The notes under the pieces were generated by a model. That model saw nothing but the letters and a program-made list of their open reading frames with translations, made no database searches and was not told the DNA's origin. A program made the translations under genes and the position numbers. Source: an uncultured Eubacteriales bacterium (GTDB lineage Bacteria; Bacillota; Clostridia; Oscillospirales; Oscillospiraceae). Taken from it: a stretch of DNA of 64,000 bases. This document shows, one piece after another, positions 7,443 through 13,435 of this stretch (position 1 is its first letter; every line of letters starts with the position of its first letter). The stretch lies in assembly GCA_942492735.1 (NCBI GenBank), contig OW818648.1, forward strand, positions 2,245,591-2,309,590, written 5' to 3'.

Positions 7443-8534
7443 TTACTTTATAAGGTTTATCGCGTCGGCAATGATCTGGGCCAGAGCGGTCGCGCCGGCT
7501 TTGTTCGGATGAACACCGTCACTGTAAAAATAACTGCTTTTATTAATACTGGCGCTGTACCAATCCGCTATGATTGTGTTGGTGTAATCCAAGCATACCT
7601 TTGACAGTGTGGCGTTATTACCTGCGCACCATGATCTGGGTAACTGGACGTTGACAAATACGATTTTTCTTTCGCTGCCGATCAGCTCTATAACCTTGCG
7701 CATATCAGATTCTCTGATGGTGCCGTTCGCGCCAAGCTCTATGACAACAACAGGACCCAGCTTGCCTGCCTGAAGTAATTGCGGAACAATACTTTTGGCA
7801 TCGGAGAACTGTCTGGATACTTTCGAATCGGAATAGAGGTTTGGGAAATGCATTTTTAAGTACGGTGTTAAGCCGACACCGATGGAGTCGCCGATGAGTG
7901 TCACGTTCAAATCGCCCGGTGTGCTTGTAGATGGAACAGGTGTGTAGACTATTGAGGTGTTGATTTCAATAGTGTCGTTCTCCGGGACATACGTGACGCC
8001 AAAATTGACGGCTGCGGCAATGTCACGGAGCTTTATGTAGTTAGACTCACCAATAAGATAAGCCGTCAGGGTGAGCTTTGTACCATTGAGATAAACGACA
8101 CATGGCGTTGTTGTTGCCGCAACATTTTCTGTTAATCCGGACACAAGCATCTCGCCTCCGGACGCGGTGTACGCCGTATTGGAGATTAAGTCTACCTGTT
8201 TTGTCAGATCGTCATAAGTCACCTCAAACTGTTTATCGGTGCCGATGAGTGCGTACGCGATGTCACGCAGCTTGAAATAGTTGTTGCCGTTGATGCAGTA
8301 GGCTTCAAACTCTGTCTGGGTGCTGTTGATGAGCACCGCTGACTGCGTCGGTGCCGCATTCGTGGCCGCGGCTGATGCGGGCAGAACGAGAATTGATACC
8401 AGCAGGATTATAGCGATAAGTAGGTATATAAGCTGTTTAACGGTTTTCATTGGTTTGTCCTCCAATTGTGCTGTGTTTGGTATGGAACCCATCGTATGGC
8501 ACAGCATTTTTGGCATTTGAATTCCTTGAATCAT
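7443..8534 (-). CDS. Secreted SGNH/GDSL hydrolase with two copper-amine-oxidase-like N-terminal domains (putative cell-wall esterase or acetyltransferase)
   Basis: Signal peptide, then two NGNNYFKLRDIAYAL-type repeats, then an SGNH domain with GDS(I), GxNG/GANG and DGVHPN blocks. Its SGNH domain is clearly similar (estimated by eye 60-70% identical, not computed) to those of the next two genes. Confidence 0.7.
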   Translation of the reverse strand: MIQGIQMPKMLCHTMGSIPNTAQLEDKPMKTVKQLIYLLIAIILLVSILVLPASAAATNAAPTQSAVLINSTQTEFEAYCINGNNYFKLRDIAYALIGTDKQFEVTYDDLTKQVDLISNTAYTASGGEMLVSGLTENVAATTTPCVVYLNGTKLTLTAYLIGESNYIKLRDIAAAVNFGVTYVPENDTIEINTSIVYTPVPSTSTPGDLNVTLIGDSIGVGLTPYLKMHFPNLYSDSKVSRQFSDAKSIVPQLLQAGKLGPVVVIELGANGTIRESDMRKVIELIGSERKIVFVNVQLPRSWCAGNNATLSKVCLDYTNTIIADWYSASINKSSYFYSDGVHPNKAGATALAQIIADAINLIK

Positions 8535-8658
8535 ATGCTTGACTGCTATTATAACAGACTGTTCTCATCGAAATATCACGAATTATGCAGACGGTGCGGG
8601 ACGGTAAGCGCTCATCCGGTATTTATGGCGCAGCTGTCTGCACGTTTACAGTTGTGCT

Positions 8659-9717
8659 TTAATGACCGTTATGAATCGGCTGATACGGACTATACGGCTG
8701 TATTGCGACAACCGCATCGGCAATGGTCTTCGCGAGAACGGTACATCCGGTATTGTTCGGATGAAAACCGTCTTTATAAAAGTATTGGTCGTTTTCAGCG
8801 CTGGCGCTGTACCAGTCTGCGATGATCGTATTGGCGAATTCTGCAACGACCTTCGTAAACGTTTTGTTGTCACCCTCACACCACGATCTCGGTACCCGGC
8901 AATTGACAAAGACGAGCTTTCTATCTTTTCCGATGAGCTCAATGAGCGCGCGCACATCGGTTTCCTTCACTGTGCCATTCGTTCCGAGTCCGATAACAAC
9001 GGTCGAGCTCAGCTTTTCTTCCTGCAGTAATTTCTCAATGATACTCTTTGCCTGATAAAACTGTCTTGAGGCTTTCGCATCGATATACATATTGGGAAAG
9101 TACTTCTTCAGATACGGCGCGACGCCGGCCCCAACCGAATCTCCGATGAAGGTGACGCTGAGATCGCACGGAAACGTGATTTCTAACGGAACAGGTGTAT
9201 AGACTGTTGCGGTGTCGATTTCTATGATGCTACTCTCCTGTATATACCTGACGTCAAAGTTGATCGCGGCGGCAATATCGCGAAGCTTTATAAAGTTGGA
9301 TTCACAGATGATATATGCTGTCAGGCTGAGCTTTACCCCGTCGAGATAAATATTAGATGACGTCGCCGTCGCGGCGACGCTCTCGGCGAATTCGGATACC
9401 TTCATCTCCGTTCCGGCCGCGGTGTAGGCCGCGTTGGAGATTAAGTCGACCTGATTATTCAAATCGCTATACGACACCTCAAACTGCTTGGCTGTACCGC
9501 TGAGCGCATAAGCGATGTCACGCAGTTTGAAATAGTTGCTGCCGTTTATGGTGTAGGCTTCGAATTCCTGCTTCACTCCGTTGATGAATACCGGAGATGC
9601 TGTCGGTGTCGCCTGAACAGCCGCGGCCTCAGCCGACTGAACAACAACGGAAAACAGCAAGGCGATGACGGTAAACATACATAGGATATTTTTTATTCGT
9701 TTCACTATTAACCTCAA
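8659..9717 (-). CDS. Secreted SGNH/GDSL hydrolase paralogue (same architecture as 7443..8534)
   Basis: Signal peptide, two copper-amine-oxidase-like repeats, then an SGNH domain with FIGDSVGAG…DGFHPN. Confidence 0.7.
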   Translation of the reverse strand: MRLIVKRIKNILCMFTVIALLFSVVVQSAEAAAVQATPTASPVFINGVKQEFEAYTINGSNYFKLRDIAYALSGTAKQFEVSYSDLNNQVDLISNAAYTAAGTEMKVSEFAESVAATATSSNIYLDGVKLSLTAYIICESNFIKLRDIAAAINFDVRYIQESSIIEIDTATVYTPVPLEITFPCDLSVTFIGDSVGAGVAPYLKKYFPNMYIDAKASRQFYQAKSIIEKLLQEEKLSSTVVIGLGTNGTVKETDVRALIELIGKDRKLVFVNCRVPRSWCEGDNKTFTKVVAEFANTIIADWYSASAENDQYFYKDGFHPNNTGCTVLAKTIADAVVAIQPYSPYQPIHNGH

Positions 9718-9740
9718 AATTTACCTCATTTATCTGGCTT

Positions 9741-11768
9741 TCAGCGTATCGGCATATACGGCTTGTAAGGCTGTACTTTATATATCGCATCAGCAATAAT
9801 CTTCGCCAGGATGGGAGAACCGGTGCTGTTCGGATGAAAACCGTCTTTCCAAAAGTAATCGCTTCTGTCAAGACTGACATCATACCAGTTGGCGACTGTT
9901 GTATTGTCGTATTCGGCGGCAATTTTCGTCAGCGTACTGTTGACCGCATCACACCAGGATCTCGGCACCTGTGTGTTGACAAAGACGATCTTTCTGTCAC
10001 TGCCGATCAGTTCAATCAGCGCGCGCATATGCGCTTCGGATACCGTTCCGTTGGATCCGAGCTCAATAACAACGGTTGACCACAGTTTGTTTTGCGCTAT
10101 CAATTCACTGATAATATTTTTCGCTTGATAGAACTGTCTGCCAACTTTAGCGTACATGTACATATTGGGATAATACTCCTGCAAGCTCGGGGCGATGTCG
10201 ATCGCTATCGAGTCGCCGATGACTGTGATGCAGAGGTCGCTCGGCGTTATGACTGCTGGTGCGCTATCAGGTGAAGCATCGGAGGCCTCTGGCGATGGGC
10301 TTGCTGTGGGCGGCTCCGGACTATCTGTTGGGTTCGCCGGACTGCTCGATGGAGAAGCCGAGGATAACGATGTATCCGTCGACGGACTCGTTGTCGGCGA
10401 TGGGCTTATTGACGGCGGCGGACTTGTTGTCGGCGCCATGCTTATTAACGGCGGCGCTGAAGAGGCTTCCGCATTATTTTGAGGCGTAATAATCATCTGC
10501 GAGGGTAAAGCGCTAAGTTCGTCCAAGCCTGAATTCGGCACAGCCTGTGCATTGAGAAAACCGGCGCCTGATACCAGTACCAGCGTGATTACCAGCAGAG
10601 CGGCCGTTTTTTCCCACCAACGCGTATGCAGGCAGCTCGAACAAAAATCACGGAAAGAGCTCTTTTTGAAGGATTTGATGATCTGACTCTTGCGAATCGG
10701 CATTTCTATAAGGTAATAAGAGACCGTTGCCAGCAGAATAGTCGCGGCAACCTGACAGATGCTCAGTATCACATTCAGTTTATTTGATGGCATCATTGTA
10801 TTCGAAATGATAATCACGGGAAACTGCCATAAATAAACGCCGTAGGATATTTTGCCGATAAATCGCAGCGGCCTTAAGCCAAAGAATTTTCCGATGACCG
10901 TGGTGGGACTTACAACTGCTGCGATGAGCACGCAAGAAGCGATGGAGAAAACGAACATGCCGCCGCGGTAAAGAAAATCGTCATACTGCGTCATATAGTA
11001 ACACATAAATATGATGCCGAAAAGCGCAATGAAACCAGCGATACTCGATATGAGTCGCGTATTCCTTTTTTGCATCGCTTCCGTAATCTTTTTGCTCGGA
11101 AAGGCGAACGCCAGACATGCGCCGAGCAGCAGGGAGAAAACACGGGTATCCGTGCCATAATAGATGCGGCTTGGGTCGAATCCCGGCTGATAGAGCACCG
11201 CCATGAGTGCACCCGATATAACAGCGGCGACGGCAATAACCGTGATCTTAATCCAGTTCTTTTTTATGAACCGCTGTAACAAGAGCATCAAAAAAGGCCA
11301 AACGAGATAAAACTGCACCTCAACGGCAAGCGACCAGAAGTGATTTAGAAGAGAAGGTGTCGCAAAAGAGGTGAAGTACGGAATGTCGTTGAATATGTAC
11401 CACCAATTACTGGCGAAAAACATAGCCGGCAGAAACTCGGATTTCAAGTTCGCAAAGAGGTCGGGGCGAAAAACCGTGACATAAGCAACAAGGCATATCA
11501 GCAGAAAAAACACACTTGGCAGGAGTCTTTTCCCACGCCGGATAAAGAAACTTTTCAGATTGATTTTGTTGTCTTTTGCCCACTCAGTCTGCAGTATATC
11601 GGTGATCAGATATCCTGAAAGCACAAAAAACAGCGTCACGCCTAGAAAACCGCCGGGGACAAACGGCAAGCCCAAATGATACGCAATAACCGCAAATACA
11701 GCTAAAGCCCGGAGGCCGTCAAGCCCGGGCATGTAAGAATTTTTTTGAATCGTTATATCTGTCATCAA
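9741..11768 (-). CDS. oatA: OatA-like O-acetyltransferase: acyltransferase-3 membrane domain, Pro/Ser/Thr-rich linker, C-terminal SGNH domain
   Basis: About 10 transmembrane helices with an acyltransferase-3 pattern, a low-complexity PSPTTSPS linker, and a C-terminal SGNH domain (VIGDSIAID…KDGFHPN). This matches the peptidoglycan O-acetyltransferase OatA architecture. Confidence 0.75.
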   Translation of the reverse strand: MMTDITIQKNSYMPGLDGLRALAVFAVIAYHLGLPFVPGGFLGVTLFFVLSGYLITDILQTEWAKDNKINLKSFFIRRGKRLLPSVFFLLICLVAYVTVFRPDLFANLKSEFLPAMFFASNWWYIFNDIPYFTSFATPSLLNHFWSLAVEVQFYLVWPFLMLLLQRFIKKNWIKITVIAVAAVISGALMAVLYQPGFDPSRIYYGTDTRVFSLLLGACLAFAFPSKKITEAMQKRNTRLISSIAGFIALFGIIFMCYYMTQYDDFLYRGGMFVFSIASCVLIAAVVSPTTVIGKFFGLRPLRFIGKISYGVYLWQFPVIIISNTMMPSNKLNVILSICQVAATILLATVSYYLIEMPIRKSQIIKSFKKSSFRDFCSSCLHTRWWEKTAALLVITLVLVSGAGFLNAQAVPNSGLDELSALPSQMIITPQNNAEASSAPPLISMAPTTSPPPSISPSPTTSPSTDTSLSSASPSSSPANPTDSPEPPTASPSPEASDASPDSAPAVITPSDLCITVIGDSIAIDIAPSLQEYYPNMYMYAKVGRQFYQAKNIISELIAQNKLWSTVVIELGSNGTVSEAHMRALIELIGSDRKIVFVNTQVPRSWCDAVNSTLTKIAAEYDNTTVANWYDVSLDRSDYFWKDGFHPNSTGSPILAKIIADAIYKVQPYKPYMPIR

Positions 11769-12202
11769 ATATTTTCCTTATTAAACAAACCGCCGTCTGT
11801 ATCATATTTCGTCACTATTCTACTAGACTTTCACCAAAGAGGAAAGTATTAATTTAAGAAATAATGAAAAAATTTGAAAGCCAAATAATGCATTGCTGTA
11901 ACGCCATAGAAAAAAGGCCTGACGCTGCATTAAGCATCGAGCCTCTTTTGAATAATTGACTGTCGTTTCCATTATATGATGTCGTCTGAATCTTTGTGCA
12001 TGGGTCAGTATTGATGACGTGTCTCAATGCCCCAAATTTGTAATTGGAGAATATTGTTTATTGCACGGATGCGACCAGCTGTCTTTGCGCCGTTCACCAG
12101 AGGCGGATATTGAGCAATATAGAGCAAATTTGACATATTATATTGCATATTGACTTCAGTTCGATTATACTAGTAACAAATTGTAACAACTTGGTGATTT
12201 AT

Positions 12203-13435
12203 ATGAAACTGATATCCTCAAAAAGGAAAAATGTAATATTCGCATGGCTGCTGACGTTCGCCCTTGTTATTGGCATGGGCTTTACGCCATTTGCGACGTA
12301 TGCCGAAGCCGTCAGTAAATCAGAAATAAATGCGCTGAAGAAGCAGCAGGAACAACTCGCGGCGGAAAAGGCCGAAATTCAGAAACAGGCGGATGTAGTC
12401 AACGGCCAAGTAGCTTCTCAGACAGAAAAACTAACCATACTGACTGTAAAACTCGATGTTACGAATCAGGAGATCGAAAATCTATCCCAACAGATCGGTA
12501 TATACACGAATTCCATAGCAGAAATGGAAAATGAACTTAACAACTACGAGCTGCAGCATCAGCAATTATTGGAAAAGTATAAGCAGCGCATACGAATAAT
12601 GGAAGAAAATGGCACGATTTCATACCTCGCCATCTTGTTTGACGCAACCAGCTTTACAGATATGCTGAGCCGACTCAATTACGTTAAAGAAGTCATGGAT
12701 TATGATAACGGCCTTATCAACGATGTCCAGGCTGCCAAAGAACAGGTAACAAATGCAAAAGCGGACATGGAAGGCGAGATGGCTGACCAGCAGATCGTCT
12801 TCGCGTCCTATCTGGACAAGCAGGCTGACCTTGACGTCCAGCAAAAGGAAGTACAGACGATCCTTTCAAGCCTGACGGCAAGTTCGGCGGATTACGATCA
12901 GCAGCTTGCATCCGTCAAATCAATCCAGTCCAAATTAAGCCAACAAATAAGTACTTTGCAGGAAAAACTGGCAGAACAAGAACGCATACTGGCGGAGCAA
13001 GCTGCTGCAAAGAAGCTCGCATTGGAGAAAAACAAATGGTATGGCGATGCGGTCGGAACAGGCACAGGACAGGACATCGTGGATCTAGCCAAGAAATTTC
13101 TCGGCATTCCATATGTTTATGGTGGGACCTCTCCATCCGGCTTTGACTGCTCAGGGCTTGTGTACTATTGTTACAAGAAGTTTGGCTATTCCATCAACCG
13201 CACCGCGTCAGCTCAGGCGTTAAATGGAACAGCGGTGTCGCCGTCAGAACTCAAGGTGGGGGATATCATCATATTCTCAGAGAAAAGCGGTAACTACATA
13301 GGTCACTGCGGTCTTTACATAGGGAACGGACAGTTCATCCATGCGCCCCATACCGGTGATGTCATCAAAATATCGAGCCTTTCGCAAGCTTATTACAAGA
13401 ATCACTTCTGGGGAGCCAGACGGATTATTAAGTAA
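12203..13435 (+). CDS. CwlO/PcsB-like peptidoglycan endopeptidase (coiled-coil N-terminus plus C-terminal NlpC/P60 domain)
   Basis: Signal peptide, about 280 aa of heptad-rich coiled coil, then an NlpC/P60 catalytic domain (GFDCSGLVYY…HCGLYIGNG…HAP). The ATG at 12203 has a GGTGA ribosome-binding site; the track's alternative start is 12143. Confidence 0.75.
   Translation: MKLISSKRKNVIFAWLLTFALVIGMGFTPFATYAEAVSKSEINALKKQQEQLAAEKAEIQKQADVVNGQVASQTEKLTILTVKLDVTNQEIENLSQQIGIYTNSIAEMENELNNYELQHQQLLEKYKQRIRIMEENGTISYLAILFDATSFTDMLSRLNYVKEVMDYDNGLINDVQAAKEQVTNAKADMEGEMADQQIVFASYLDKQADLDVQQKEVQTILSSLTASSADYDQQLASVKSIQSKLSQQISTLQEKLAEQERILAEQAAAKKLALEKNKWYGDAVGTGTGQDIVDLAKKFLGIPYVYGGTSPSGFDCSGLVYYCYKKFGYSINRTASAQALNGTAVSPSELKVGDIIIFSEKSGNYIGHCGLYIGNGQFIHAPHTGDVIKISSLSQAYYKNHFWGARRIIK

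What the first reader, a model, noticed from the sequence alone, without database searches (positions are those of the whole stretch)
7443..11768. OatA-like acyltransferase-3 plus SGNH gene followed by two secreted SGNH-only paralogues fused to copper-amine-oxidase-like wall-binding modules
The three consecutive minus-strand genes carry clearly paralogous SGNH domains (estimated by eye at 60-70% identical, not computed; shared blocks include GDS.G, VVI.LG.NGT, LIELIG..RK.VFVN..VPRSWC, NT.IADWY and DGFHPN). The first gene is a classical OatA fusion. The other two have dropped the membrane acyltransferase and gained a signal peptide plus two copper-amine-oxidase-N-type repeats. This looks like modular duplication of the extracytoplasmic half of a peptidoglycan O-acetylation system, possibly giving O-acetyl-peptidoglycan esterases (Ape-like) or substrate-specificity variants. 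The cluster lies divergent from a CwlO-like NlpC/P60 hydrolase.
Basis: partly seen in the sequence, partly recalled or inferred. Interest (0 to 1): 0.6.

Follow-up and report, generated by a model that had tools for sequence, protein, structure and literature searches.

The report
Secreted spare copies of OatA's catalytic domain
Next to a gene for the enzyme that acetylates the bacterial cell wall (OatA) lie two genes for secreted copies of that enzyme's outer catalytic half; both look catalytically intact, the layout is conserved in related bacteria, and whether they add or remove acetyl groups is not settled.

Summary
Three co-oriented minus-strand genes encode an OatA-type AT3–SGNH protein (A) and two signal-peptide proteins (B, C), each with an N-terminal PF07833-like module plus an SGNH domain. 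The SGNH domains are 52–60% identical, not the 60–70% estimated by eye. Their best solved-structure match is S. aureus OatA-C. They form one clade inside OatA SGNH domains, so they are duplicates of OatA's own outer domain.

The Ser/Asn/Asp/His catalytic set is invariant in 32 family members, and dN/dS is about 0.06–0.3. The layout recurs in Papillibacter/Sporobacter-like genomes, always beside a PcsB/CwlO-like NlpC/P60 gene, with either one or two SGNH-only genes.

The kind is not unique. Stand-alone OatA-type SGNH proteins are common and uncharacterised in Bacillota, and Viridibacillus arvi has an independent OatA + SGNH-only pair.

B and C are not Ape1 relatives. Wall binding by the N-module is unproven.

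One directional clue exists. All B-type proteins carry Ala where OatAs keep the transferase-promoting Val/Ile.

My best guess is wall O-acetyl esterases, most clearly B (about 0.4). The main rival is transferases loaded in trans by the AT3 domain (about 0.3). I rate this a new variant of a known kind, of moderate interest.

The parts
9741..11765 (-). Gene A: OatA-type O-acetyltransferase (674 aa from the ATG). It has an AT3 membrane domain, an 11th TM helix, a 95-aa Ser/Pro linker, an SGNH domain and a PYxPY tail.
   Evidence: Pfam PF01757 at E 4e-33. TM and linker scan. PDB 6WN9 at E 4e-17.
10716..11729 (-). AT3 (acyltransferase-3) domain of A. It includes the R..H motif, WSL..E..FY and the YYGTDTR loop.
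   Evidence: Pfam coordinates aa 14-351. Motifs read from the translation. The equivalence of the loop Tyr to SaOatA Tyr206 was not tested.
10251..10535 (-). Ser/Pro/Ala/Thr-rich acidic linker of A (about 95 aa, pI 4.05), lying between the last TM helix and the SGNH domain.
   Evidence: Composition S27 P23 A15 T10. pI.
9744..10250 (-). SGNH domain of A plus the C-terminal tail VQPYKPYMPIR. Catalytic residues: Ser519 (10209-10211), Asn572, Asp641, His644. Block II is VGR. Block I +4 is Asp.
8659..9705 (-). Gene B (348 aa from GTG 9705): signal peptide (aa 1-27), PF07833-like two-half-repeat module (about aa 28-172), SGNH (about aa 179-338) and tail IQPYSPYQPIHNGH. Catalytic residues: Ser190 (9136-9138), Asn243, Asp312, His315. 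Block II is ASR, with Ala212 at 9070-9072 where OatAs have Val/Ile.
7443..8450 (-). Gene C (335 aa from ATG 8450): signal peptide, PF07833-like module, SGNH, no tail. Catalytic residues: Ser189 (7884-7886), Asn242, Asp311, His314. Block II is VSR.
12203..13435 (+). Divergently transcribed secreted peptidoglycan hydrolase: PcsB-type coiled coil plus NlpC/P60 endopeptidase. It lies next to the A/SGNH genes in six of the seven related loci; the seventh contig is too short to show it.
   Evidence: Pfam PF24568 and PF00877. NCBIfam RipC/PcsB-like. Synteny.
11790..11860 (-). Conserved upstream block of gene A, containing TCTAGTAGAATA (-10-like TAGAAT at 11817-11822). Probable promoter or leader of the A-B-C operon.
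   Evidence: Alignment of five loci. A and B are 35 nt apart, B and C 208 nt apart, and no terminator-like site lies between them.

Best explanation
**Shown**
- A, B and C probably form one operon.
- A is an OatA-type enzyme. By homology with S. aureus OatA, its AT3 membrane domain takes acetyl from cytoplasmic acetyl-CoA to an outer-face tyrosine. Its SGNH domain, tethered by a 95-aa flexible linker, picks the acetyl up on its catalytic serine and puts it on a wall glycan, most likely MurNAc C6-OH of peptidoglycan.
- B and C descend from that same SGNH domain. They have lost the membrane half, gained a cleavable signal peptide and a PF07833-type surface-protein module, and kept the complete Ser-His-Asp triad and the oxyanion Asn under purifying selection.

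**Inferred**
- B and C have no membrane acetyl source of their own and are released from the membrane. I therefore think they most likely run the OatA-C reaction in the hydrolytic direction.
- In that reading, the serine attacks an O-acetyl ester on mature wall glycan, forms acetyl-enzyme, and water releases acetate. They would be erasers to OatA's writer, locally re-opening O-acetylated wall to autolysins.
- This parallels the patA-patB-ape1 cluster of Gram-negative bacteria, but with an esterase recruited from the transferase itself.
- The case is strongest for B. Every B-type protein has Ala at the Block II position where OatAs keep Val/Ile, and in SpOatA the V460A change cut transferase activity 5-fold while slightly raising esterase activity.
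- C keeps Val and may differ in substrate or direction.
For: **Homology and descent**
- SGNH of B and C hits SaOatA-C at E 1e-18. The family profile gives E 5e-32. The AF2 model (pLDDT 84.7) has Foldseek top hits 6VJP/6WN9 at TM 0.91, then 5UFY.
- In the NJ tree, A, B and C of this clade are monophyletic within OatA SGNH domains. Bootstrap support for clades A/B/C is 98/100/91.

**Competence**
- GDS Ser, Block III Asn and Block V D..H are invariant in 32 members and in all 35 stalk+SGNH proteins.
- dN/dS is 0.06-0.3 for A, B and C alike. In the least saturated pair, A is 0.139 and B is 0.129.

**Secretion**
- Signal peptides with AxA sites and no lipobox.

**Conserved linkage**
- NlpC/P60, A, B and C occur together in L001, L003 and L004. 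A plus one C-type gene with NlpC/P60 nearby occurs in L005, L006 and L008.

**Direction clue**
- Block II is A(S/C)R in all 8 stalk-bearing B-type proteins and in L007_B. It is V/I in 81% of fused AT3-SGNH domain matches and 92% of anchored stand-alone proteins.
- The V460A/G effect in SpOatA is reported in PMC5697884.
- The SaOatA Asp457-equivalent is proposed to restrict solvent; D457A/N raised both hydrolysis and transfer (PMC9487903). It is Asp in A but Gly in B and C. Across the sample it is Asp in 42% of fused domain matches and 6% of stalk+SGNH proteins.

**Precedent**
- The patA-patB-ape1 cluster is a writer+eraser cluster (PMC6174289).
Against: - No sequence feature cleanly separates SGNH esterases from transferases. 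Ser at Block II position 2 and the lack of the Block I Asp also occur in proven OatA transferases.
- C-type proteins, and most anchored stand-alone relatives, keep the transferase-associated Val.
- V460A in SpOatA raised esterase activity only slightly.
- B and C show no similarity to the one proven O-acetyl-PG esterase family, Ape1.
- The widespread relatives are membrane-anchored. The V. arvi paralogue looks like a copy of TM11-linker-SGNH sitting beside its OatA. Both fit trans-loading by AT3 at least as well.
- The substrate is inferred only from homology and from the NlpC/P60 neighbour. A L. paracasei relative sits beside an EPS cluster instead.
Confidence: 0.4

Rival explanations
1. B and C are trans-acting O-acetyltransferases. 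They dock on the outer face of A's AT3 domain, take the acetyl from its acetyl-tyrosine as PatB does from PatA, and deliver it to acceptors that A's own tethered SGNH does not serve. Such acceptors could be a different sugar, a different stem-peptide state or a different wall depth. One membrane donor would then feed three acceptor-specific domains.
For: - They descend from a transferase domain and keep its full catalytic set.
- They are always encoded directly downstream of an AT3 gene.
- C-type proteins and 92% of anchored stand-alone relatives keep the transferase-promoting Val/Ile.
- Split membrane-donor plus soluble-SGNH systems are established for PatA/PatB, where acetyl-Tyr serves as donor (PMC12148441).
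- The V. arvi paralogue is a membrane-anchored copy beside its OatA.
- The SpOatA acetyl-enzyme is long-lived, with a half-life above 70 s.
- SaOatA and SpOatA show that OatA-C domains can differ in stem-peptide specificity.
Against: - B and C have cleavable signal peptides and no anchor, so nothing keeps them at the membrane donor.
- A keeps its own intact SGNH domain, which would compete for the same acetyl-tyrosine.
- B-type proteins have lost the Val/Ile that favours transfer.
- No interaction evidence could be obtained with these tools.
Confidence: 0.3
2. The substrate is not peptidoglycan. A, B and C add, remove or redistribute acetyl on another envelope glycan such as a secondary wall polymer, teichoic-acid-like polymer or exopolysaccharide. 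Alternatively, B and C act as transacetylases that move acetyl from one glycan to another without a membrane donor.
For: - AT3-SGNH proteins modify many glycans (PMC9558356).
- A L. paracasei stand-alone OatA-type SGNH gene lies beside a Wzz/CpsD/glycosyltransferase cluster.
- The V. arvi pair is followed by an LCP gene, a family that attaches wall polymers.
- A has GSN rather than the G(T/V)N motif reported for OatA.
Against: - The closest characterised relative by a wide margin is the PG-specific SaOatA-C.
- The only conserved neighbour in this clade is a peptidoglycan endopeptidase.
- No polysaccharide biosynthesis genes lie in the immediate surroundings of the window locus.
Confidence: 0.15
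3. B and C are non-enzymatic or decaying duplicates: glycan-binding decoys, or pseudogenes in the making.
For: Second SGNH copies in AT3-SGNH-SGNH proteins elsewhere often lack the triad, so SGNH duplicates can lose catalysis.
Against: - The full catalytic set is invariant in all 35 stalk+SGNH proteins.
- dN/dS is as low as for A.
- Reading frames are intact and conserved across several independent assemblies.
Confidence: 0.03

Closest known systems
OatA of Staphylococcus aureus (AT3–SGNH peptidoglycan O-acetyltransferase; C-domain structures 6VJP/6WN9)
   Same: - Gene A has the same architecture: AT3, extra TM helix, linker, SGNH.
- The SGNH domains of A, B and C are its closest solved relatives (E 4e-17 to 1e-18; fold TM 0.91). 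They share the Ser/Asn/Asp/His set and the Block II xGR/xSR motif.
   Different: - B and C lack the membrane domain entirely, are secreted, and carry a PF07833-like N-module.
- B has Ala instead of the Block II Val (SaOatA V475).
- B and C lack the Block I Asp (SaOatA D457).
- A has a much longer Ser/Pro linker and, with B, a PYxPY C-terminal tail that was absent from the eight outgroup OatAs inspected.
OAP cluster patA–patB–ape1 of Neisseria and other Gram-negative bacteria
   Same: One gene cluster combines a membrane acetyl translocase, an extracytoplasmic SGNH transferase and a further extracytoplasmic SGNH protein (Ape1, a proven O-acetyl-PG esterase). This gives a writer plus an eraser (PMC6174289).
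   Different: - The membrane component here is AT3, not MBOAT.
- The transferase is fused, not separate.
- The extra SGNH proteins are paralogues of the transferase and show no detectable similarity to Ape1.
- Their activity is unknown.
Stand-alone OatA-type SGNH proteins of Bacillota (annotated only 'SGNH/GDSL hydrolase family protein' or 'acyltransferase'; for example Lacticaseibacillus paracasei 239 aa, Paenibacillus massiliensis 240 aa, Viridibacillus arvi 232 aa)
   Same: - Same SGNH subfamily without an AT3 domain, with an intact triad.
- In V. arvi the gene follows an OatA-like gene by 41 nt and is 77% identical to that neighbour's SGNH domain. This is an independent case of the same duplication.
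   Different: - Those proteins have an N-terminal TM anchor or lipoprotein signal plus a low-complexity linker. B and C have a cleavable signal peptide plus a PF07833-like module.
- In the genome collection scanned, that architecture was found only in Papillibacter/Sporobacter-like genomes.
- None of these relatives carries a functional name in the sources I looked at.
PF07833 (Cu_amine_oxidN1, 'stalk') domain proteins of Bacillota, e.g. Paenibacillus lautus Cu/Zn-SOD N-domain (8IMD)
   Same: - The N-modules of B and C belong to the same sequence neighbourhood. Hundreds of PF07833 proteins with other catalytic domains are hit at about 1e-30.
- 23 of 32 family members match the Pfam model.
- PF07833 proteins occur in a Gram-positive surfaceome (PMC4137172).
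   Different: - Window B and C score below Pfam's threshold.
- The demonstrated role in PaSOD is homodimerisation, not wall binding (PMC10432803).

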